This document shows positions 1-10,899 of a stretch of DNA of 64,000 nucleotides, piece after piece (positions within the stretch are counted from its first letter, which is position 1; the number at the start of each line of letters is the position of its first letter). The translations under genes were made by a program, and so were the position numbers. The notes beneath the pieces were generated by a model that did not search any database, was not told the DNA's origin, and worked only from the letters and a program-made list of their open reading frames with translations. Source of the stretch: an uncultured Gammaproteobacteria bacterium (GTDB lineage: Bacteria > Pseudomonadota > Gammaproteobacteria > Xanthomonadales > SZUA-36). The DNA lies in NCBI GenBank assembly GCA_963749115.1, contig CAVVLP010000010.1, positions 254,366-318,365 on the forward strand, given 5' to 3'.

Positions 1-1
1 C

Positions 2-478
2 CGGATGCTGGTTGCCCAGGGTATATCCTGTCGCATGGGCCACAGGGTCTACACTCAGTTCAACCCAACTGCCGGAACCGTCTTCATAGGTCCGGCCAAT
101 GCCGGCGTGCCTTACCTCATCGGCCCTGATGTGGTAGTAGTCTCCCATACCCGGCGCGATATCGCGGGACCTGGTATCACTGTCACCGAAGCCGGCGTTA
201 GGGCGTTGGGCGGTGCGCGTTCGGCGTACATAACCACCGCGCTTGCCGAGGCGATCCCATCCATGACAGGATTTGCAACGGACATAGTCCTTGTACGATT
301 CACCCGCAGGCAGACCGCTGCCGCCGCCATCCGTACTGGTCCAGTCATCATAGGCCAGCGCGCCCAGCGCTATGCAGGGGGTCGTATCATCATCCCTGGC
401 CCAACCACTGGCGCTCCATGCCAGGCACCAGAGCGTTGTCATCAGAATTCCGATCGTTGATTTCACCGTATTCTTCAT
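2..478 (-). CDS. c-type cytochrome, N-terminal part (gene runs off the left edge)
   Basis: Not in the ORF track (no stop inside the window). My minus-strand translation from ATG 478-476 gives MKNTVKSTIGILMTTLWCLAWSASGWA (signal peptide) ... YKDYVRCKSCHGWDRLGKRGGY, with one CxxCH haem motif. Confidence 0.7.
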   Translation of the reverse strand, partial: MKNTVKSTIGILMTTLWCLAWSASGWARDDDTTPCIALGALAYDDWTSTDGGGSGLPAGESYKDYVRCKSCHGWDRLGKRGGYVRRTRTAQRPNAGFGDSDTRSRDIAPGMGDYYHIRADEVRHAGIGRTYEDGSGSWVELSVDPVAHATGYTLGNQHP

Positions 479-739
479 GTCTCTGTTCCTGTACAGCTCT
501 CGTGCCGTCGTACCTACCGGGGAGGCGCAGACGTCATCCTAACGATCTACTTTTCGATCCTATCGTGTCCCTGTCTTGCAAATCTCCTCGCTACCAGGGT
601 TTAAGGCCCACGGAAATCCACCTGATCTATCCAGGTGCCCGGTCTTGTTTCCGTCTCTCAAGCAACTTCCGGGTACCTCAAAAAGTTGCTTTTGAAAATT
701 CTGCACTTCAAAATATCACACCAATTCTTACAGCAAGCT

Positions 740-814
740 GAAGAGCTTCTTAAGCTCCCGGTAAGGTTCGCTCAAAATTATCTCTTTCCTTAACACAAGC
801 TTAAGAAGCTCTTC
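740..814. promoter_or_regulatory. 16-bp perfect inverted repeat pair in a divergent intergenic region (possible operator)
   Basis: GAAGAGCTTCTTAAGC (740-755) and its reverse complement GCTTAAGAAGCTCTTC (799-814). Each is followed within 2 nt by TCCCG(G/T)TAA. The pair lies between the divergent cytochrome c and BNR genes. Confidence 0.3.
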
Positions 815-961
815 ATCTCCCGTTAATACAACATTTAATATAGTGATACTGATCCCGTCCAGACACAGCTTTTATAAGTCGACAAGATCAAGCACAGAGT
901 TAATCCGCGAGGGGGTCTCACGTAATCTTTTGATTACGTGGAACTGCGAAGGAGAAAACTT

Positions 962-3900
962 ATGAGACGCAAGGCTTGGTCTGCGCTGTGCGCAGCATTT
1001 CTGACTCTATTCTCAATCTCACTCCTGGCGGATGACTCCACTTTGGGGTGTGAAGGACCATTTGGACCGGTATTCGGCTATCCCGACCCCGGGCCCTACA
1101 CGACCGACTTGATCGAGCGAAAGAAGGGTACGGTCATTGGCATTGTCGATGTGTTCAACACCACCGATACCATGACTTTCAGATTAAGACCTTCTGATAA
1201 AGTCAAACTTAATGAATTCCAACTGTGGACGGGTAACGATCTTTCAACAATACCTGTCGACAAAAAGGGCAAACCGGATTTCAGAAAGTTCCCCTGGAAG
1301 GAATACAAAATAAAGGTCCAAAAGGGTGGGGCGTATTCACTTGTTCTGAATCTCAAAGAGGACTTGGACTTCAAATGGCAGGGAGGCACCAAGCACTGGG
1401 CCTTCATGCTTCATGGCAAAGCCGGTAAATACGAATTTATGGCGGCCGGGCCATGTATTTTCTATGCCGACAGAAAGGGCGAATACACCTATTCACGGAC
1501 CAGGATGACTCATCCGGACCGCGGCAATTTCATAGACGCGACGGTCATCGGGCTTGACTACAAAGGTCCCACGCAGGAAGGCGTGACCGGTTATAACGAG
1601 GACGGCACTTTGAGCGAAAAGGGTGGTTTCGTGTTCTTCCCGGGTGAAGAAATTTCTTTTTCCGTTGGCAAGGTTCCTCTTGGTATCGCCGCGGCAAGTA
1701 AGAAAGTATCACCACTGGACTTTTATGCAGGTGCAGACACCACCGACCCCAGCGTGATCGCAATGGCACAAGTGTTGCAGACGCTGGACTCTGACTCCGG
1801 AGCCGTCGACCGTGACGGCAAGATCGTGTTGCTGCCCGAGGTCGTGAAGTGCTTCGAAAAGACGGCAAAAAGATCAAAGATACCAGTGATTGGGACGATG
1901 CTGATTTGATCAGCAAGGTTCTCGATGAAACGGTGAGCAAGTGTAATGGCGATGGTGACTCCGTGTTGGCAGTGGTCTCAGCCGACGAAGCCCAGGGCAA
2001 CCTGGAAGCCGGTCTGAACGCCAGTGGCATCTTCCGTAAGAACGTCTCCAAGACCGAGGACTGGGGCGAGACCAAGCAGAAGCTTGAGGTCATGCCGGTT
2101 TATTTCCCCGGTATGCGTTCGAACGGTGATCCGTCACTGTGTGTTGACGTCAGACGGTGACAAAGAATACGACGAAGGCGATAGACACGATCGGCGTACC
2201 CTACGAGGAATGGCGCCTGGACGGCGATCCACTGGCCGAAGAATGTGATCCCCGCGATTTCGAGGATCCTGAAGCGTGCCAGGTTACGCTCATCGAGTGC
2301 CGTGACCTTGCCAAGCCGCTTCTCGTCACGTACATGGCCAAGGTCGACATCTATGACGAACAGGTCAAAGAAGAATTCTGGCCCGATCGTTTTTCATGGG
2401 ACCTCTTTACCGCGGTTTCCCGCGACGACGGCACCACCTGGAAGCGCAAGAACATCTCGCGCATGGCGGACATGTCGTCCTTCGATCTGGAGACCGGCGA
2501 GCCCTTCCCGGGCACCGTCGGATCACCCTACCTGAAGGTCAACGACAACAAGATCCTGACGGTCTGGGAGAGCAAGTTCTGCAAGAGCGGCAACCCGCGT
2601 TACTCCATCAATCTCTGTGATGATCCGGCGACCGAGGAGGTCGAGGCGGATGATCCGCTGACGGAAGAGAACGAGTGCGCCGTCTACTGCCGTGGCAACC
2701 CGGACGAGGGTACCGAGGTCTGCGAACCCGACTATCCCGGTGACGATGACTATTATCGTCACCGATATCTGGGGCGTACGCGGCAGCCAGGGTTCGGTCG
2801 ATTACGACGAGGTCGACGACGTGGCCGAGCTGGGTATTGGCGAAATCCCCTACAGCTGCCTGTGGGCAGCGCGTGGTGTGATCGCCAGCCAGAAGGAGCT
2901 CGACGAAGGCACGTTTGCGTCGATGAACATCGAAGACGACCGACTACTGACGTTACTCAATGCACCGCAGAGGGCGAACCGTATGAATGCTGCACCGGTG
3001 TGGGAACAGGCGACTGTGATGAGTCTGCCGCGGTGGAACTCGGCGATATCGTCTGGTTCAAACCCGAGCGCCTGACCTCCGGACGTCGCGATGTTTACAT
3101 CCCGATGCTCGGCTCGGCCCGCGGCGCGGGTTTTGCCATCGCCTGGCAGGAAGACCCCAGCGGTCTGCGGCCCGGCAAGGGCAAGGGCCCCGGCGAGGGC
3201 TGGAGCGGCGCGATCACCAATCACAAGTCCGACATGTGGTACAGCTTCATCTCCTACGATGACTTCAACATCGTCGATGAGGACTTTGAGTCCCGCGGAC
3301 CGGGTGGCGGCGACCGATGCCGATCCGGACGGCGACGAGGGTTACCTCGACAAGCCCGGACTGGGACGACCCAAGGCGCTGGTGCCCTTTCAGCCTGCCG
3401 GTGCGTATTACCGACAACGACATGGTCAATACCCACACGCTCAAGGTGGAACCAAGCACCGACTGCCCGACATTCCCGGACAGCACCGGTGAGAACGATC
3501 CGGTCTGCTTCCCCGAGGTCGTGGATGGCTCGTTCTGTGCCGATCGATCGCTGAGGAGATCGCAGCCGAGTTCTGTGGCCATCCCGATGCCGATCCGGCC
3601 ACCTGCTGTGATCCGGATAACCACGAGGGCGATCCCAACTGCGAAGACCTGAAGGGCCTCTTCGGTAACGCCAACGGCACCAAACGCTACGCCTACCTGG
3701 CACGTTCGATCGATGAGGTCGACAATGCCACGGGTTTGTACCTGGCCGGAGGCGACGGTGTACCGGATTACCAGTACTACGTGGATCGCGGCGGCACACT
3801 GGACCTGTGCGATGTGTCAGGAGCGAATTCCTTCTTCGACATGATGCCGGGTACCTCGGCCCACGAGCGCTGGTTCGGTTTCACCAACACCAACGGTGTC

Positions 3901-6005
3901 GACAAGCTGGTTTGCGTGTCTTCCGACGGCCGTCTGCTGGACGGTGACGTCTATGCCTCGAGGCCGATGCTGCAGTTGCAGCCTACACGAAGTGCCGACG
4001 GCACCAAGAGTGCCTGGGCACTGCTTCGCCTACGAGGAGTCCAAGGGTCTGGGCCACTCACTGGCAGCGGAAGCGCACGATGACACCGACAATCCGGTAG
4101 ACCCGATCGTCGCCCCCGAGGAGGATGACAAGGGCCAGGAGAAACCGATCAAGCAGGACATCGGCAAGAACATGATGTACCACTCGTTCGATTTTGCCCA
4201 GCCTGACCTGGTGGCCCCGGGTCATATCGCCAACCTGCCGGCATTGTGCGGTGGACTTTATCCGACCTACTGCGACGACCGCAAGACACCGGATATCATC
4301 GAAACCAACGAGGAAAACCCGACCTGCACCTGCGAGGCTGGTCAGCCGGTACCGCTGTACTTCGACTACTTGGGTTGAAGGCACGGATCCGGAAACCGAT
4401 CCCGGCGAGTGGATTGCCGGACGACACCAAGTTCCTGCAGTACCGCTACGAGATCGCACGCCGTGCGCGTTTCCTGATGCAGTCACCGGGCAAGATGGGC
4501 GACACCAAGACACTGGGCGCGCTGATCTACAAGCAGGGCCAGGAAGGGCAAGGCCGTCCGGCCGATGCCTATATCCGGCGCTTCGTCAAGTCCGGTACGG
4601 GCAATCCATACAAGTTCGAAAATATGGAATGCACGACCTACCTGGACGAGACCTTTGACCTGCCAGGCCTGCCCGAACGGCGCCGGTGACAAACCCAGCG
4701 CGGTTGGCTACAACTGCAACGTCTGGGGTGAAGCTTCCGGCGACCGGCTGTGTGGCGGGGTCTTCACCGATCCCAATGGCGGCTATCCGACGCCGCGACC
4801 ACATCAACATGACCAGTGCCGATGTCGACCTGGCGGTGGGTGTTGGACCGGAAGACGATACACCGGACGATCCCACGGACGACGTCTATAACAGGAATAA
4901 AGTCCTGTTATGGTCGCAGCACGAACGCAACCTCGGTGACGAGTCCTACGGCCTGGTTCATGAAGACGGGACCGCGTGTGACGTGCTGAATGGCGAAGTC
5001 TGCCCGGGCATGTACTCCAACGTCCGCAGCCACCGTGGCTTTATCCGTGGCGATTTCTTCGCGGTGGCCTACGCCCTGTCACCCAACTGGGCAGCCGGGC
5101 GCAACGGCAACGACCGCTACAACTTCTACGTCAGGAAGTCCTTCGACGGCGGCCAGACCTGGACCACGAATCCTGCATGGTGGCAGGGTGTCTATGTCTG
5201 TCCCGAGTTCCGGACCGATCCATACAGCCCGGATCCGGATGGCTCCGGCAATCTGCCTCCCGCAGTCTTTGACGAGACCTGCGGAACGTATGATCCCGAG
5301 ACTGTTCCCGATGGCGAATTGCCGCCGATGCCGGTTGGAATCGCGATGACGAACTACCTCGATCCCATGGGCACCACGCCCGATGGCGTGCCCGCCCAGT
5401 TCATCGGAGCAGGCGAATTCGAGCCGGCGCGCAACGTGTCCGAGATCAAGAGCAACAAGGAGTCGTCGGGCGATCCGCGGCTGGGCACCACTCCGCCGAC
5501 CTATCCGCTCGACGGCACATCCGACCCTGGCGAACTCTGTCCGAATGCGAGTCTGGTTTACGTCGAGGACAACTACGTCAACAACATGTTCTTCGTCGCC
5601 TGGGGCACCGTGGACAACGACAAGTCCACCGGTTCGTCCGGCGTCAAGGCAGAGTCGGGACCGCTGGATCTCTACTACACCCGGTCCGAGAACTACGGTG
5701 ACACTTTCGTGAAGATCCCGTGGGTTGTCGGCGGCGAGAACAGCAACGAGGGCTATGGCGAGACCGTCTGGCGCTTTGACTACGTGGCCAAGGGCGATCC
5801 CGAGGAGCAGGGCGAATGCCAGCTCCGGGCGACCTCCGATGGCTCCAAAGCCTACGTCATCTGGCACTCGACGATCTCTGACGAGGAAGATCCGGACGAG
5901 GAGTACACGCGTTACTATCCGTGGAAACCCTCGGGATCCACCGAGAACGACCTGTGGTTCCGACGCGTGATCTTCTGGCCGGTCGCTGAAGAGACGACAC
6001 CGTGA
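962..6005 (+). pseudogene. very large (~1,680 codon) secreted BNR/Asp-box beta-propeller protein, reading frame broken about 10 or more times
   Basis: AAGGAG then ATG at 962, with signal peptide MRRKAWSALCAAFLTLFSISLLA. Coding sense continues through ORF-track pieces 938-1909, 1849-2160, 2157-, 2692-, 3091-, 3317-, 3736-, 3896-, 4246- and 4686-6005 in changing frames. Asp-box-like motifs: SRDDGTTW, SFDGGQTW, SADGTKSAW, TSDGSKAY. Confidence 0.6.
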
Positions 6006-6152
6006 CACCATCCCCGGATGGCGCCGGCGAACAGCCGGCTCATCCTTCAACCCAACCGCCGGGGGCATTCATCGCCCCCGGCGACAAGGAGGTCAAAAAT
6101 TAGAAACCGGGGACGAATCCCTCGGCCCCGGGTGGCCGTGAGGAGATGAATC

Positions 6153-7334
6153 ATGAAACCAAGATATTTTGTTAGTTCAAGATTCGGAGCCTTGCTTTCA
6201 GCCTTGTTCGCATTGCCGCTGTCCATGGAGCTGGCGATGGCCCAGGAGGGAGTGGAAGACTCTTATCATGGCCAGATGGGCTATGGCACAGGCATGGGTA
6301 TGCTGGAGAAATGGTGTGCCCTGCCGAATTTCAGTTTTGACCAGCAGGATGGCATCGACGGCTGGACCACGCAGTCCTGCAATAGCTGCCATATCGGCGC
6401 CAGCTGGAACCCGACAAAGGACACAGCCGGACTGCACCCGCTGCCATGTCTCAGCAACCCCGGTTCTCGGTGACGCTGAGGTGGATACCAGCAGGTGCAT
6501 GACCTGTCACAAGAAAGATACGGCCAAACGCGGTGATCTCTTTCAGCCCGAGTTTGACGTGCATATCGAGGCCGGCTTTGTCTGCCAGGACTGCCATGTA
6601 CGGGTGACGGACGGATCCAGCGATCACCAGTTCCTGAAAGGAACCGCCATGGATACGACCGAGCCGACGATGATGGGAACGATGTCATGCACCATGTCGG
6701 TTGCCATGAGGCGCTACCGCATTCCAGGCGACAAACCAAGGGCATGACACTCAACGGCCACATCGACAAAGTGGCCTGTGAGACCTGCCATACCGGTCTG
6801 AGACCGGCTGCGGCCCTGGAAAGCCGCCATGGAACGTGTTTAACGAGGCGGGCAAGCCGTGTGACCACCAAGCGTGACCCCGGATTGGCTGCCGGTACAC
6901 AAGTGGTACGACAATACGGGCCCGGGGCTTCGGGCAATTTCCATCTGCCGATACTGGGTTTCACGGAAAGACGCGAGCTGAAGGCGCCAAGATTTACCCC
7001 TTCAACGCGGTGACTGTTGACTGGTATGTCAAGAACAAGAACTCCGACTTTGACGACGTGATCATCGTGCCCGAGGTCAAAGCGGCAGATGCGGACCAGG
7101 ATGGAACCGTGACCTCGAGGAAATGCGGGCCGTCTATAAGCAAAGCCACAGCTGATCACCGCCGACATGAACTTCAGCATCAACCATTCTGTCGTGCCGG
7201 CATCGGAGGCATTTGTCTGCAACGATTGCCATGGCCGGAAAGGGCTGGGTCCTCGACTGGAACCAACTCGGTTATGCCAAGGACCCACGAAGAACGGTGG
7301 AAAGAAAGGCGGCAAGACTCCAAATAGCCATTAA
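6153..7334 (+). pseudogene. multihaem c-type cytochrome (about 7 haem sites), at least 3 frameshifts
   Basis: Signal peptide MKPRYFVSSRFGALLSALFALPLSMELAMA. Haem motifs CNSCH, CTRCH, CMTCH, CQDCH, CETCH, CNDCH plus a broken xGCH, spread over pieces 6153-6473, 6169-6747, 6687-7013 and 7010-7327 in different frames. The 3' end is uncertain (7327 or 7334). Confidence 0.65.
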
Positions 7335-7440
7335 GCAATTACGGGAAGTACTGGCTATATTTAACCAGCCAAGCGAAGGGCCTGTGGTGTTTTCACAGGC
7401 CCTTTCTCAATACGGACTGGGTCACCTGGATATTCGATTG

Positions 7441-7753
7441 CTACGAGTAATGCACCGCCAACCAGACAGTTTCAATCGTCTCATCAGTCCAGGCAACCCT
7501 GTGCTTTTTATGGGCAGGTATTGCAGCAATCGCCCGGGCCCAATTCAGTCTGCCGGCCATCCCTGAACTCCAGCCTTGCTGCACCCTTTAACAAGACTAC
7601 GAACTCGTTGGTGTCCTGGTCATACCAGTCCATGTCGCGTGTCGTGTGCCCCCTCGAGATAATTCGTTGGATCCGGACCGAGTCTGTATTGACCAGGTCC
7701 TCGAAAAGCTCTTCGGGAAGATCATCGGGGATATCGGTGAACAGGTTCTTCAT
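7441..7753 (-). CDS. small cupin-domain protein (one apparent frameshift)
   Basis: MKNLFTDIPDDLPEELFEDLVNTDSVRIQRII...ELGPGD. After a shift near 7525-7540 (CGCCCGGGCC) it continues IAAIPAHKKHRVAWTDETIETVWLAVHYS*. Confidence 0.6.
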
Positions 7754-7757
7754 TGTT

Positions 7758-8117
7758 TCACCTGACACACCTGATTGCATCCTTCACGCTGGCAGCATTA
7801 ATGACGCAATTTTTCTGCTCCAGCCTCTGGTTTCGCAGTGCGACATTCTCCGATGTGAGCTGATTGTATTGGTTAACCGTTTTTTCATAGTCACTCATAA
7901 TCGCATCGTATTGCGAACCGCAGATATATCCCCTTTCCGATTCGCAGCCCTGCCCGTCTAAACAAACAGCATCTTCAGCTACGCATTTTGCGGAAGCGGG
8001 GCAAACGGTATCACCCTCTTCCAGGCAAGCTGCCCTGGTCGCATCCGGACAGGAAAAATCACCCCGGGCACTGGCCGACAAAAGTGAAAATAACAATAAA
8101 AACATGATGGCCTTCAT
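7758..8117 (-). CDS. secreted Cys-rich hypothetical protein
   Basis: ORF track 119 aa. Signal peptide MKAIMFLLLFSLLSASA, 10 Cys in the mature part, coiled-coil-like C-terminal half. Confidence 0.5.
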   Translation of the reverse strand: MKAIMFLLLFSLLSASARGDFSCPDATRAACLEEGDTVCPASAKCVAEDAVCLDGQGCESERGYICGSQYDAIMSDYEKTVNQYNQLTSENVALRNQRLEQKNCVINAASVKDAIRCVR

Positions 8118-8134
8118 GGTCTGTACCTCGATCC

Positions 8135-9007
8135 CTATTCCTCAATGCCCACCTTCTGAAAAGTGAGCGGCGGAGCTGACCTTATTTCCAGTGCACTGGT
8201 CACATCGGTGCTGAAAGTCATTCCCGCCTCACCAAGAACCCGCCAGCATTGAATCATTACATCATTGGTGATATCCACCAGGCCGCGGCGACTGGTGCTG
8301 ATATCCACCCAGAAGAACACCTCGTAAATGATCCAACCGTCAGCAAACTGTTGGATGCTGACAAACGCCTGTGGCTCAGGCAGCACATCTTCCACCTGGC
8401 GAATCGTGTTTTGCAGAAGTGAAACAACTGCTTCAGGTTCGTCGTGGTAGGCGACCCCAATGCAAAAATTGGGACGGCGAAGTCCATCGCGGGTGTAGTT
8501 ATAAAGTTCTTCTCTGAAGATCTGTGCGCTGGGCACGAAAACGTCACAGGCATCAGCGGTACGTATATGGACAGAACGCACATCGATGGCGCGAACGGTG
8601 CCGGTCAAGCCACCCGACTTGATCAGATCACCCACTTCGAAGGGCCTGCTGAAATTCAGGAAAATTCCAGCCAGCAGGTTTTCACCGATTTCCCGAAATG
8701 CGAAACCCAATACAATCGCGACCACCCCACCGGTGGCCAACATACTGGCAGCCAGGCCTTTGAACCCCATGACACTCAGGGCAAATAACACACCAAGTAT
8801 CCGGATAGCCCACATCACCAGTCGCCGCACATAGCGCTCCTGGGCTTGCAAACGCTCGCTGCGATGCATGATGCGGGCGACCAGGTTGCTGAGTGCGCGG
8901 GCAAACAGGAAAAAGATAATCAATACAATTGCGGCGTAAATCAGTCGTGGTGAGAAACTGAGAAAGGTTTGCCAATCGGCCTGTAAACTTTCAGTGATGA
9001 ATTCCAT
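8135..9007 (-). CDS. mechanosensitive ion channel, MscS family (copy 1)
   Basis: The ORF-track 339-aa ORF is trimmed to the internal Met that matches the copy-2 start (MEFITESLQADWQTF...). TM segments followed by FEVGDLIKSGGLTGTVRAIDVRSVHIRT, a typical MscS beta-domain. Confidence 0.8.
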   Translation of the reverse strand: MEFITESLQADWQTFLSFSPRLIYAAIVLIIFFLFARALSNLVARIMHRSERLQAQERYVRRLVMWAIRILGVLFALSVMGFKGLAASMLATGGVVAIVLGFAFREIGENLLAGIFLNFSRPFEVGDLIKSGGLTGTVRAIDVRSVHIRTADACDVFVPSAQIFREELYNYTRDGLRRPNFCIGVAYHDEPEAVVSLLQNTIRQVEDVLPEPQAFVSIQQFADGWIIYEVFFWVDISTSRRGLVDITNDVMIQCWRVLGEAGMTFSTDVTSALEIRSAPPLTFQKVGIEE

Positions 9008-9110
9008 CCTGTTATTAACTCCGGCTAGTTGGAATAAATGATAGAGAATACTCTTTGTCTCAATTGCTTTTTCAGGCTTATGACCAGGGTTAGTCAACAC
9101 CATTGAAGCG

Positions 9111-9368
9111 GTGTTAATCGAGTTCATACCATGCAGTTGTCCCAATGAACTCACTTCTATCGACGATACTGAAAAAAGAGACCTGAATATACTACTATCA
9201 AACTATCCAGTTTACATTCGTGAAGCACATTACTCTGATCCCGACAATGAAGACAGAATGATTCTGGTGTGGGGTCTACTGGTTGGTGTTGATGGGAACG
9301 AGTGTGAGGGAACTTGTGATGGTGAGTTTGTCCTGCATAGAATCACCAAACACTTCGATTGTAAGTAA
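9111..9368 (+). CDS. hypothetical 85-aa protein inside the duplicated unit (copy 1)
   Basis: ORF conserved in both repeat copies (1 aa difference). GTG start, no recognisable motif. Confidence 0.25.
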   Translation: MLIEFIPCSCPNELTSIDDTEKRDLNILLSNYPVYIREAHYSDPDNEDRMILVWGLLVGVDGNECEGTCDGEFVLHRITKHFDCK

Positions 9369-9923
9369 TGATTACCAGCATTTGCGTAATACGACTGCCA
9401 AAGAATCTGGGCTTGTCAGTGACTCTTCCAATCATGATGTCGCAGGTATGCGAATACGGTGTGCTTTCAGGCAAAACTTGTGTGGATTCTAATTGCTATG
9501 TTCTTCCACATTTATTTTGGACTGGCTTGTCTGAAGCCAGCAACACTGAATTGGCTAGTCGGCACGAGGAAATAAGCGGTCATTTCTGCAATATCCCGCG
9601 AGTTCGGCTCTGGAGCAAACATCAGAAAAAATAGGGTGGATAAGATCAACGTTTGTTTTAGCATACTGTCATCCTGACTGTTAGCAAGTTCGTTACTGGA
9701 ATTTGTCCTTTACTACTACCATGCAATAATCAAGCCAGAAGAGGTATTCAACTGGAAACACGCTAACGCGCAATTAAATACCTTTTAAATACAACGTGAT
9801 ATATTGCGAACAAAGAATTTTGGGAAATTTTGCTTCAGCCAAATCTGATCGCAATTATCCAAAATATGTCAGAAAAACAGACCAAAATTGTCATCCACAA
9901 TGAGCCGACGTCCTCTACGATCC

Positions 9924-10796
9924 CTATTCCTCAATGCCCACCTTCTGAAAAGTGAGCGGCGGAGCTGACCTTATTTCCAGTGCACTGGTCACATCGGTGC
10001 TGAAAGTCATTCCCGCCTCCCTAAGAACCCGCCAGCATTGAATCATTACATCATTGGTGATATCCACCAGGCCGCGGCGACTGGTGCTGATATCCACCCA
10101 GAAGAACACCTCGTAAACGATCCAACCGTCAGCAAACTGTTGGATGCTGACAAACGCCTGTGGCTCAGGCAGCACATCTTCCACCTGGCGAATCGTGTTC
10201 TGCAGAAGTGAAACAACTGCTTCAGGTTCGTCGTGGTAGGCGACTCCAATACAAAAATTGGGTCGGCGGAGTCCATCGCGCGTGTAGTTATAAAGTTCTT
10301 CTCTGAAGATCTGTGCGCTGGGCACGAAAACGTCACAGGCATCAGCGGTACGTATATGGACAGAACGCACATCGATGGCGCGAACGGTGCCGGTCAAACC
10401 ACCCGATTTGATCAGATCACCCACTTCGAAGGGCCTGCTGAAATTCAGGAAAATTCCAGCCAGCAGGTTTTCACCGATTTCCCGAAATGCGAAACCCAAT
10501 ACAATCGCGACCACCCCACCGGTGGCCAACATACTGGCAGCCAGGCCTTTGAACCCCATGACACTCAGGGCAAATAACACACCAAGTATCCGGATAGCCC
10601 ATATCACCAGACGCCGCACATAGCGCTCCTGGGCTTGCAAACGCTCACTGCGATGCATGATGCGGGCGACCAGGTTGCTGAGTGCGCGGGCAACCAGGAA
10701 AAAGATAATCAATACAATTGCGGCGTAAATCAGTCGTGGTGAGAAACTGAGAAAGGTTTGCCAATCGGCCTGTAAACTTTCAGTGATGAATTCCAT
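9924..10796 (-). CDS. mechanosensitive ion channel, MscS family (copy 2)
   Basis: 290 aa. Differs from copy 1 at 4 residues (F/V, M/I, I/V, G/R). Confidence 0.85.
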   Translation of the reverse strand: MEFITESLQADWQTFLSFSPRLIYAAIVLIIFFLVARALSNLVARIMHRSERLQAQERYVRRLVIWAIRILGVLFALSVMGFKGLAASMLATGGVVAIVLGFAFREIGENLLAGIFLNFSRPFEVGDLIKSGGLTGTVRAIDVRSVHIRTADACDVFVPSAQIFREELYNYTRDGLRRPNFCIGVAYHDEPEAVVSLLQNTIRQVEDVLPEPQAFVSIQQFADGWIVYEVFFWVDISTSRRGLVDITNDVMIQCWRVLREAGMTFSTDVTSALEIRSAPPLTFQKVGIEE

Positions 10797-10899
10797 CCTG
10801 TTATTAACTCCGGCTAGTTGGAATAAATGTTAGAGAATACTCTTTGTCTCAATTGCTCTTTCAGGCTTATGACCAGGGTTAGTCAACACCATTGAAGCG

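What the first reader, a model, noticed from the sequence alone, without database searches (positions are those of the whole stretch)
1..7334. GC-rich cytochrome c / giant BNR beta-propeller / multihaem cytochrome cluster that is almost entirely shattered by frameshifts
The cluster has three parts:
- a monohaem cytochrome c (CKSCH)
- divergent from it, a ~1,680-codon secreted protein with Asp-box motifs (SRDDGTTW, SFDGGQTW)
- immediately downstream, a ~390-codon cytochrome with six intact CxxCH motifs plus one broken one

A secreted beta-propeller flanked by c-type cytochromes suggests an extracytoplasmic redox enzyme system, by analogy with propeller-plus-haem enzymes such as cd1 nitrite reductase, hydrazine synthase and quinohaemoprotein dehydrogenases. 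I do not recognise this particular combination.

The two large genes need roughly 10 and 3 or more frame changes, about one per 300-500 bp, which is far denser than elsewhere in the window. Hand counts of sample 60-nt lines give 58% G+C (line 1) and 72% (line 3301). Later lines give 53% (line 8161) and 35% (line 56581). The block is compositionally foreign, or it is a region where the sequencing chemistry failed.
Basis: partly seen in the sequence, partly recalled or inferred. Interest (0 to 1): 0.6.

Follow-up and report, generated by a model that had tools for sequence, protein, structure and literature searches.

The report
Intact genes shattered by assembly errors
The three genes are real, but the roughly 26 frameshifts that break two of them are almost certainly consensus errors of a long-read metagenome assembly, so the locus is an ordinary set of secreted-protein and cytochrome genes, not a decaying or exotic system.

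Summary

**The three genes**
- A cytochrome c gene (CKSCH) on the minus strand. It is really the first 159 codons of a 432-aa dihaem protein cut by the window edge.
- A ~1,680-codon secreted gene at 962-6005 with two Asp-boxes.
- A ~390-codon cytochrome at 6153-7334.

**What they are**
- The big gene is a member of NCBIfam NF040591, "choice-of-anchor O protein". It models weakly as a sialidase-type beta-propeller.
- The downstream gene belongs to a common ~390-aa heptahaem family. The "broken" seventh haem motif is a conserved CX4CH site hit by one frame change.

**Why the frameshifts are artefacts**
- After frame correction, both genes read end to end with no in-frame stop.
- dN/dS against intact same-genus orthologues is 0.083, against 0.084 between those orthologues.
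- About a quarter of this genome's genes carry the same lesion type: 24 single-base insertions against 4 deletions in ~80 kb.
- Orthologues are shattered in 5 of 9 long-read assemblies from three phyla and in 0 of 10 short-read assemblies.
- The density here is 8-25 times the genome background. The cause of that excess is only inferred.

**The "redox system" reading**
It is not supported by conservation. Only 8 of 79 related loci have a multihaem gene nearby, and congeners have independently lost either partner.

Interest is low.

The parts
1..478 (-). First 159 codons of a 432-aa dihaem c-type cytochrome family protein (CKSCH at 263-277). The gene continues about 820 bp to the left of the window.
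   Evidence: It is 96% identical to an intact 432-aa ORF in the sister MAG locus L060, which has two CxxCH motifs. Two further +1 frame changes lie outside the window, at about -173 and -303. Pfam Cytochrom_C matches the second haem domain of the L060 protein.
479..961 (.). Divergent intergenic region. The ribosome-binding site GAAGGAG lies just upstream of the ATG at 962.
   Evidence: Sequence shown. The region is collinear with L121, L060 and L021. No sigma-70-like promoter was found by the simple scan.
962..6005 (+). One gene of about 1,680 codons for a secreted choice-of-anchor O protein (NCBIfam NF040591). It has a signal peptide, a variable N-terminal ~380 aa, and a sialidase-like propeller core with two Asp-boxes (2418-2441, 5139-5162). 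As assembled it is split by about 14-15 frame changes, near 1863, 2152, 2183, 2757, 2945, 3312, 3385, 3536, 3549, 4024, 4373, 4416, 4666, 4790 and possibly 5989. Twelve of them are single extra bases.
   Evidence: NF040591 pieces score 173 and 140 bits (cut-off 125) and are collinear over model positions 3-669. There are no in-frame stops, and identity to the G004 orthologue is 82.5%. dN/dS is 0.083.
6006..6152 (.). Spacer with G+C-rich inverted repeats, followed by the RBS GAGGAG of the cytochrome gene.
   Evidence: It is conserved in L121, which lacks the big gene. No T-tailed terminator was found by the simple scan.
6153..7334 (+). Gene of about 390 codons for a heptahaem c-type cytochrome with a signal peptide. 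It has six CxxCH motifs (6378, 6433, 6496, 6583, 6777, 7218) and one CX4CH near 6688-6709. As assembled it is split by 11 frame changes, near 6426, 6698, 6829, 6860, 6876, 6929, 6976, 7116, 7142, 7236 and 7295.
   Evidence: A search returned 206 homologues. The best are intact proteins of 389-395 aa at 79-83% identity. The frameshift-aware alignment gives 84% identity and no in-frame stop. Pfam Cytochrome_C7 and c3_2 match.

Best explanation
The locus holds three functional genes:
- a dihaem cytochrome c on the minus strand;
- a ~1,680-aa secreted choice-of-anchor O protein (NF040591), modelled as a sialidase-type beta-propeller with large Cys-rich and acidic insertions;
- a periplasmic heptahaem cytochrome.

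The roughly 26 frame changes in the two + strand genes are not mutations. They are uncorrected single-base indels, mostly spurious extra bases, in the consensus of a long-read metagenome assembly.

Shown here:
- The frame-corrected genes are intact and under the same purifying selection as their intact orthologues.
- The same error signature runs through the whole genome.
- The same gene is broken in other long-read MAGs.

Inferred:
- This stretch is an error hot spot because consensus quality collapses locally. The locus is structurally polymorphic among close relatives.
- All three affected genes here, including a paralogue on another contig, have many 75-85% identical homologues in co-occurring taxa. 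Long reads from those taxa can be mis-recruited during polishing.

Function, inferred only:
- The big protein is an exported binding or hydrolytic propeller. In other genomes it sits next to two-component or sigma-54 regulator genes.
- The two cytochromes are ordinary periplasmic electron carriers.
- Their adjacency to the big gene is a lineage-specific arrangement, not a conserved enzyme system.
For: 1. Read in the frame of the intact G004 orthologue, the big gene translates over about 1,690 codons with only the terminal stop. The frameshift-aware alignment gives 15 frame changes, 0 in-frame stops and 82.5% identity. The cytochrome gives 11 frame changes, 0 stops and 84% identity to an intact 393-aa homologue.
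2. dN/dS is 0.083 for window-G004, 0.083 for window-G009 and 0.084 for G004-G009. The window lineage has the fewest private amino-acid changes: 33, against 67 and 89.
3. Genome-wide, 21 of 84 orthologues of a short-read congener are split over two or more frames in this genome. In about 80 kb of aligned coding DNA outside the locus there are 24 single-base insertions against 4 single-base deletions, mostly not in homopolymers. The big gene shows the same signature: 12 insertions against 2 deletions.
4. Orthologues in other long-read assemblies are equally shattered, at different positions and with 0-1 stops: L059 (Chloroflexia) 11, L060 (Gammaproteobacteria) 4, L062 (Actinomycetota) 22, L125 11. 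Their flanks hold normal long ORFs. All 10 short-read orthologues are intact, against 5 of 9 long-read ones broken (Fisher P = 0.011).
5. The MFD-named relatives come from Nanopore-only assemblies polished with one round of Medaka (PMC12313526).
6. The error-dense zone is bounded. Against L121, the flanks at -7100..-1667 have 6 gaps in 5.4 kb and those at 7760-10586 have none.
7. A paralogue on contig C2 shows the same pattern: 21 frame changes and 1 stop in 4 kb.
Against: - No individual site is therefore verified directly.
- The 8-25-fold local excess over the genome's own error rate is explained only by inference.
- In the cytochrome, single-base deletions (6) are as common as insertions (5). 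This differs from the insertion-dominated profile elsewhere.
- The cytochrome really is being lost in close relatives: L060 has a 793-bp deletion and G004 lacks the gene. Some of its lesions here could therefore be real.
- The provenance of the window's own assembly is withheld.
Confidence: 0.9

Rival explanations
1. The genes are real, recently inactivated pseudogenes. A dispensable, horizontally acquired locus is decaying by accumulating small indels.
For: - The locus is variably present among congeners. L121 has deleted the big gene and left a 12-codon scar. L060 has lost 793 bp of the cytochrome and G004 all of it.
- The indel density is far above the genome's own background.
Against: - About 26 frame changes in the two window genes occur without a single nonsense codon in about 2,070 codons.
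- dN/dS equals that of the intact orthologues, and the window lineage has the fewest private substitutions.
- The 12:2 excess of single-base insertions outside homopolymers matches the genome-wide artefact signature. It runs against the deletion bias expected of bacterial gene decay (established knowledge).
- The same gene is shattered at different sites in unrelated phyla, but only in long-read assemblies.
Confidence: 0.05
2. Mixed case. The big gene's frameshifts are artefacts, but the heptahaem cytochrome is truly decaying in this lineage and some of its 11 lesions are real.
For: - The cytochrome has the highest lesion density, 9.3 per kb.
- Its indel spectrum is different: 6 deletions and 5 insertions.
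- Two close relatives have lost part or all of it.
Against: - There is no in-frame stop, and all seven haem motifs and the signal peptide are retained.
- Identity to an intact homologue is 84%.
- Relatives that keep the dihaem-heptahaem pair have it intact.
Confidence: 0.08
3. Programmed recoding. The frame changes are decoded by +1 ribosomal frameshifting, quadruplet decoding or transcript editing, so the gene is expressed as assembled.
For: Most changes in the big gene are +1, and the corrected product is conserved.
Against: - No shared sequence motif is seen at the sites.
- The sites are not conserved between assemblies.
- Short-read orthologues at 84% DNA identity lack all of them.
- A quarter of all genes in the genome would need the same mechanism.
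Confidence: 0.01

Closest known systems
NCBIfam NF040591, "choice-of-anchor O protein"
   Same: Two separate pieces each pass the curated cut-off: 173 and 140 bits against 125. All pieces are collinear with model positions 3-669 of 670. Full-length orthologues match positions 3-669 of the model in two segments, 3-244 and 266-669.
   Different: - This orthologue group is about 1,680 aa, far longer than the 670-position model. It has an extra ~480-aa N-terminal region and about 500 aa of insertions.
- No C-terminal sorting signal is evident.
- The family has no tested function, and no paper in the library mentions it.
Sialidase-type six-bladed beta-propellers (GH33 sialidases, GH93 arabinanases, BT_0996)
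   Same: Two canonical Asp-boxes (S-x-D-x-G-x-T-W) are present. For the AlphaFold model of the orthologue core, the best PDB fold matches are all of this class.
   Different: - The matches are weak: E from 6e-3 to 0.1, none at or below 1e-3, and TM normalised to the target 0.2-0.36.
- Pfam BNR is below its threshold.
- A PDB sequence-profile search found nothing.
- Catalytic residues were not assessed, so no hydrolase activity can be claimed.
A family of ~390-aa heptahaem c-type cytochromes common in sediment metagenomes, which JGI labels "methanogenesis multiheme c-type cytochrome"
   Same: The search returned 206 homologues; the 120 listed reach 47-83% identity, mostly over 86-99% of the length. 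The six intact homologues retrieved share the layout of six CxxCH plus one CX4CH. Pfam Cytochrome_C7, c3_2 and Cytochrome_cB match.
   Different: It does not meet TIGR04314 itself: 15 bits against a cut-off of 250. The JGI label is therefore not a membership. The physiological partner is unknown.
Frameshift-fragmented genes in long-read-only assemblies (a known artefact; from my own knowledge, e.g. Watson & Warr 2019)
   Same: Single-base indels break about a quarter of genes genome-wide. The corrected genes are intact and conserved. The lesions are absent from short-read assemblies of relatives.
   Different: - The errors here are mostly insertions outside homopolymers, not the classic homopolymer deletions.
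- They pile up 8-25-fold at particular genes.
- Those genes are the same ones hit in unrelated MAGs.
   Same: A secreted beta-propeller lies next to c-type cytochromes. In addition, 14 of 77 family members carry two CxxCH motifs inside the propeller protein itself.
   Different: - No sequence match to any of those families was found.
- The propeller class is sialidase-like, not the 8-bladed d1 or PQQ type.
- The window's orthologue group has no haem motif.
- Adjacency to cytochromes is not conserved.

Membership tests
NCBIfam NF040591 choice-of-anchor O | HMM score at or above the curated cut-off (125 bits) over the length of the model | tested here: met
   Pieces 2148-3551 (173.3 bits) and 4659-6002 (140 bits) each pass. 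Five pieces are collinear over positions 122-669. The genome search places pieces at positions 3-206 through 501-669.
NCBIfam NF040591 choice-of-anchor O | Secreted protein with an N-terminal signal peptide and one of several alternative C-terminal anchors | tested here: inconclusive
   The N-terminus MRRKAWSALCAAFLTLFSISLLADD looks like a Sec signal by eye. The C-terminus ...FRRVIFWP... shows no recognisable sorting signal. No signal-peptide predictor was available.
Sialidase/BNR six-bladed beta-propeller superfamily | Asp-box repeats (S-x-D-x-G-x-T-W) | tested here: met
   SRDDGTTW lies at 2418-2441 and SFDGGQTW at 5139-5162. Family members carry one or two such motifs. Pfam BNR reaches only 16.9 bits, below its cut-off of 27.
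Sialidase/BNR six-bladed beta-propeller superfamily | Six-bladed propeller fold matching solved sialidase-type structures | tested here: inconclusive
   The AlphaFold2 model of orthologue residues 473-1672 has pLDDT 66 and pTM 0.77. The top Foldseek PDB hits are GH33, GH93 and BT_0996 propellers, but E is only 6e-3 to 0.1 and none reaches 1e-3.
Sialidase/BNR six-bladed beta-propeller superfamily | Catalytic Arg triad and Tyr/Glu nucleophile pair | not tested
   The model confidence and the weak structural alignments do not allow residue mapping.
Multihaem cytochrome c (Pfam Cytochrome_C7 / c3_2) | Several CxxCH haem-binding motifs and an HMM score above threshold | tested here: met
   Six CxxCH plus a conserved CX4CH are present. 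PF14522 scores 30.9 bits for one window piece and 42.2 bits for the intact homologue P0002, against a cut-off of 24.8.
TIGR04314 methanogenesis multiheme c-type cytochrome | Equivalog HMM score at or above 250 bits | tested here: not met
   The best piece scores 15.3 bits. The JGI label on homologues is not a membership.
cd1 nitrite reductase / hydrazine synthase / PQQ quinohaemoprotein dehydrogenases | Sequence match to the d1 or PQQ eight-bladed propeller domains | tested here: not met
   No such Pfam or NCBIfam hit was found for any window piece or for the intact 1,672-aa orthologue.
Genuine bacterial pseudogene (gene decay) | Relaxed selection (dN/dS rising towards 1), nonsense codons alongside indels, lesions reproducible across sequencing technologies | tested here: not met
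   dN/dS is 0.083, the same as between the intact orthologues. There are 0 in-frame stops in the big gene and the heptahaem gene, and 0 in the upstream dihaem gene. The breakage is seen only in long-read assemblies, 5 of 9 against 0 of 10. Read-level confirmation was not possible.

The most novel reading that the evidence does not exclude
Once the artefactual frameshifts are set aside, the dihaem cytochrome, choice-of-anchor O propeller and heptahaem cytochrome could still form a genuine extracytoplasmic redox module in this gammaproteobacterial genus.

Supporting observations:
- The three-gene arrangement appears ancestral in the clade. L121 keeps a deletion scar of the big gene between the two cytochrome genes.
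- 14 of 77 family members, including this genome's second copy, carry two c-type haem-binding motifs inside the propeller protein.
- The family has spread by horizontal transfer among sediment anaerobes, including Desulfuromonas, Geobacteraceae, Thermincola and Desulfobulbaceae MAGs.

On this reading, NF040591 would be a new class of haem-linked extracellular propeller enzymes.
Probability: 0.1. Interest if true: 0.55.

Novelty: new member of a known kind. Interest (0 to 1): 0.15.

Why it matters
- **Biologically, little.** The genes are ordinary members of named families: NF040591 and a common heptahaem cytochrome family. The feature that made them look odd, the shattering by frameshifts, is not a real property of the organism.
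- **Practically, the case is a warning.**
  - About a quarter of this genome's genes carry spurious single-base insertions.
  - Particular genes are hit 8-25 times harder. These are genes with close homologues in many co-occurring taxa and at structurally polymorphic loci.
  - The same gene is hit in long-read MAGs of three phyla.
  - Pseudogene calls, "genome decay" claims and protein catalogues built from such MAGs will be biased at exactly these horizontally shared genes.
- **A minor open point.** NF040591 is a large, strongly conserved, widely transferred secreted protein with no known function. A subset of its members carries haem motifs.

Tried and rejected
- **Read-level check.** This was the decisive test.
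- **Pfam on the raw pieces.** It gave nothing for the big gene. NCBIfam was needed.
- **PDB sequence-profile search with the family alignment.** No hit.
- **Literature.** Thirty-three papers mention "choice-of-anchor", but none mentions "choice-of-anchor O".
- **Local G+C as the driver of errors.**
  - Rejected within the normal range. Frameshifted and intact orthologues have the same mean G+C of about 0.53.
  - It cannot be excluded for the ~58-61% genes.
- **Homopolymer slippage.** Rejected, because most extra bases are not in runs.
- **Intrinsic codon-usage frame-switch scan of the whole genome.** It puts this locus and the C2 paralogue near the top of all 4-kb windows (~1%). It is confounded by operons of short genes, so it was used only as a rough rank.
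- **Search for a same-species independent assembly.** The best hit, P0127, is 97% identical over a conserved stretch. Its contig L125 is only 85.6% identical in DNA and is itself a frameshifted long-read contig. It gives another example of the artefact, not a direct validation.
- **First hypothesis that the big gene is an insertion between a native cytochrome pair.** Rejected. L121 retains the big gene's RBS, its first ~12 codons and its 3' flank, so L121 carries a deletion.
- **Quadruplet or +1 recoding.** Rejected, because there is no shared motif and the sites are not conserved.


Full report
**What is in the sequence**

- The window is contig C10:254366-318365 of a 3.57-Mb, 17-contig genome that is 93% complete and 51.7% G+C.
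- Stop-to-stop translation of 1-8200 shows a + strand coding region from about 926 to 6002 that hops between all three frames. A second such region runs from 6150 to 7334. A minus-strand ORF runs off the left edge.
- The block is G+C-rich. The big gene is 58.8% G+C and its core 60.9%, the cytochrome 56.8%, and the rest of the window 50.1%.

**One gene, and which family**

- Pfam finds nothing in the big-gene pieces.
- NCBIfam places five consecutive pieces on one model, NF040591 "choice-of-anchor O protein". They fall at collinear model positions 122-206, 266-304, 305-347, 376-447 and 500-669. Two pieces individually pass the 125-bit cut-off.
- Same-genus genomes hold intact orthologues:
  - G009 has an ORF of 1,683 aa stop to stop, 1,672 aa from the first Met.
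  - G004 has an ORF of 1,763 aa stop to stop, 1,691 aa from the first Met.
  - Both are 84% identical in DNA to window 1700-5990.

**The frameshifts are not evolutionary decay**

- A three-way DNA alignment shows about 12 single extra bases in the window relative to both intact orthologues, and few deletions. A third relative, L060, confirms the same sites.
- Read in the orthologue's frame, the window gene translates through about 1,690 codons with only its terminal stop.
- A frameshift-aware protein-to-DNA alignment gives 15 frame changes, 0 in-frame stops and 82.5% identity.
- dN/dS over codons 380-1690:

| Pair | dN/dS |
|---|---|
| window vs G004 | 0.083 |
| window vs G009 | 0.083 |
| G004 vs G009 (both intact) | 0.084 |

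- The window lineage has the fewest private amino-acid changes: 33, against 67 and 89.
- The cytochrome behaves the same way:
  - A stitched translation finds 206 homologues, the best being intact 389-395-aa proteins at 79-83% identity.
  - The aligned window DNA needs 11 frame changes, has no in-frame stop, and keeps all haem sites.
  - The intact homologues show that the "broken" seventh site is a conserved CX4CH (CTMSGCH).
- Together the two genes carry about 26 frame-breaking lesions in about 2,070 codons, with no nonsense codon and no relaxation of selection. This is not what gene decay looks like.

**The same lesion type is genome-wide**

- I took 84 ORFs of 200 aa or more from 21 contigs of the short-read congener G009. 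Of these, 21 are split over two or more frames in this genome.
- At DNA level, about 80 kb of orthologous coding sequence outside the locus holds 24 single-base insertions and 4 single-base deletions in this assembly. Most are outside homopolymers.
- Earlier notes on this window had flagged frameshifts in a cytochrome c5 gene, in bioC/bioD and in a TolB-like gene. That fits.
- A free-living 3.6-Mb bacterium cannot have a quarter of its genes broken. This is an assembly error profile.

**The same gene is shattered in other long-read MAGs**

Seventy-nine related loci were fetched. The table gives the state of the close orthologues.

| Assembly group | Locus | Taxon | Frame changes | In-frame stops |
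|---|---|---|---|---|
| Long-read, broken | L059 | Chloroflexia | 11 | 0 |
| Long-read, broken | L060 | Gammaproteobacteria | 4 | 0 |
| Long-read, broken | L062 | Actinomycetota | 22 | 1 |
| Long-read, broken | L125 | not identified | 11 | 0 |
| Long-read, intact | L048, L054, L055, L056 | Chloroflexia (3), Geopsychrobacteraceae (L055) | 0 (L055: 4 calls, all in the divergent N-terminus or at the C-terminal end, taken as alignment noise) | 0-1 |
| Short-read (k127/k141/NODE/scaffold contigs) | 10 loci | various | intact ORFs of 1,578-1,739 aa | not applicable |

- In the broken orthologues the changes are mostly +1 or +2 and lie at different positions. In L059, L060 and L062 the flanks hold normal ORFs of 400-800 aa (L125 was not checked).
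- Counting this window, 5 of 9 long-read assemblies are broken, against 0 of 10 short-read ones (Fisher P = 0.011).
- The MFD-named MAGs are Nanopore-only, Flye-assembled and polished with one round of Medaka (PMC12313526).
- The window's own provenance is withheld. Its contig sizes and error signature match that class, so this is an inference.

**Why here**

- Against the genome's background of about 0.37 frame-breaking indels per kb:

| Gene | Indels per kb | Poisson P |
|---|---|---|
| Big gene | 3.0 | 2e-9 |
| Heptahaem cytochrome | 9.3 | 2e-12 |
| NF040591 paralogue, contig C2:800989-804970 | 5.3 | 2e-17 |

- The zone is bounded. Against the collinear short-read contig L121, the flanks at -7100..-1667 and 7760-10586 are almost gap-free.
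- G+C within the normal range does not predict breakage.
- Two features mark the affected genes:
  - The locus is structurally polymorphic among close relatives (see below).
  - These genes have many 75-85% identical homologues in other taxa of the same habitats, and in MFD03551 and MFD09779 in the same samples.
- I infer that mixed or cross-recruited long reads degrade the consensus here.

**Is it a redox system?**

- The upstream gene is really a 432-aa dihaem protein. It is 96% identical to L060's, and two more +1 errors lie left of the window.
- L121, L122 and L123 carry dihaem(-) / heptahaem(+) / 122-aa / MscS without the big gene.
- The junction alignment shows that L121 retains the big gene's RBS, its first ~12 codons and its 3' flank. 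L121 is therefore a deletion derivative, and the three-gene order is ancestral in this small clade.
- The partners are lost independently:
  - G004 has the dihaem gene and the big gene but no heptahaem gene.
  - L060 lacks 793 bp of the heptahaem gene.
  - G009 has the big gene in another context.
- Across 79 loci from at least six phyla, only 8 have an ORF with 2 or more haem motifs within 6 kb.
- The recurrent neighbours are histidine kinases, sigma-54 and LuxR-type response regulators, and ECF sigma factors, found in 52 loci.
- No d1 or PQQ propeller signature exists.
- The proposed enzyme system is therefore not supported.
- One observation keeps a small door open. Fourteen of 77 family members, including this genome's C2 paralogue, carry two CxxCH motifs inside the propeller protein.

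**Fold**

- An AlphaFold2 model of orthologue residues 473-1672, built from 50 sequences, reached pLDDT 66 and pTM 0.77. It has a beta-rich core and many disordered insertions.
- Its best PDB matches are all sialidase-type six-bladed propellers (GH33, GH93, BT_0996), but only at E of 6e-3 to 0.1.
- With two canonical Asp-boxes, "sialidase-like propeller with large insertions" is a reasonable description. An enzymatic activity is not established.

**Horizontal transfer**

- Orthologues at 57-85% identity (best tblastn segment) occur in Thermoanaerobaculia, Actinomycetota, Chloroflexota and Desulfobacterota.
- The gene is usually at or above its host's G+C: 0.58 against 0.46 in L063, and 0.59 against 0.50 here.

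**Verdict**

- The frameshift "shattering" is an assembly artefact (confidence about 0.9).
- The genes are ordinary members of named families.
- The redox-system idea is not supported by conservation.
- Interest is low. The main value is as a quality-control example.

Noticed in passing
own genome contig C2:800989-804970 (minus strand); loci L001, L004-L006, L008: A second NF040591 gene belongs to a different subfamily whose members carry two CxxCH motifs inside the protein (here CSECH and CYSCH). It is 57.9% G+C and is broken by about 21 frame changes plus one stop, relative to an intact 1,395-aa congeneric orthologue (L012).
   Followed up: partly
L121:7812-7900 versus window 930-992 and 6049-6152: A relative that lacks the big gene still carries its ribosome-binding site, its first ~12 codons and its 3' flank. 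This is a clean ~5-kb deletion scar between the two cytochrome genes.
   Followed up: yes
L060:15153-15164 versus window 6134-6927: The sister MAG has a 793-bp deletion that removes the start, the signal peptide and five haem sites of the heptahaem cytochrome. An open 143-codon remnant is left. G004 (L021/L043) lacks the gene entirely.
   Followed up: partly
whole genome (contigs C1-C17): About 25% of genes compared with a short-read congener are split by frame changes. Single-base insertions outnumber single-base deletions 24:4, mostly outside homopolymers. Any pseudogene or recoding claim in this genome needs read support.
   Followed up: yes
L059, L062, L125 (other phyla): The orthologous gene is broken by 11, 22 and 11 frame changes in these long-read contigs, while in L059 and L062 neighbouring genes look normal (L125 was not checked). 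The error hot spot is gene-specific and recurs across unrelated MAGs.
   Followed up: partly
window 6688-6709; proteins P0001-P0012: In all six homologues retrieved, the heptahaem family has a CX4CH site (CTMSGCH, CTMAGCH or similar) between the fourth and fifth CxxCH motifs.
   Followed up: partly
window 7760-9089 and 9924-10878 versus L123:1313-2642: Both copies of the MscS-locus duplication noted by another reader match a single copy in the relative. The duplication is therefore specific to this genome or to this assembly.
   Followed up: no
L042-L063: Best-segment identity for a ~1,680-aa secreted protein is 57-85% between Gammaproteobacteria, Acidobacteriota, Actinomycetota, Chloroflexota and Desulfobacterota. 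That is unusually high conservation for a cross-phylum transferred gene of unknown function.
   Followed up: partly
own genome C4:28000-35000, C3:92000-99000, C5:101000-107000, C17:1-4000: These are other windows with very many same-strand frame switches in the intrinsic scan. They could be further error hot spots or simply operons of short genes.
   Followed up: no
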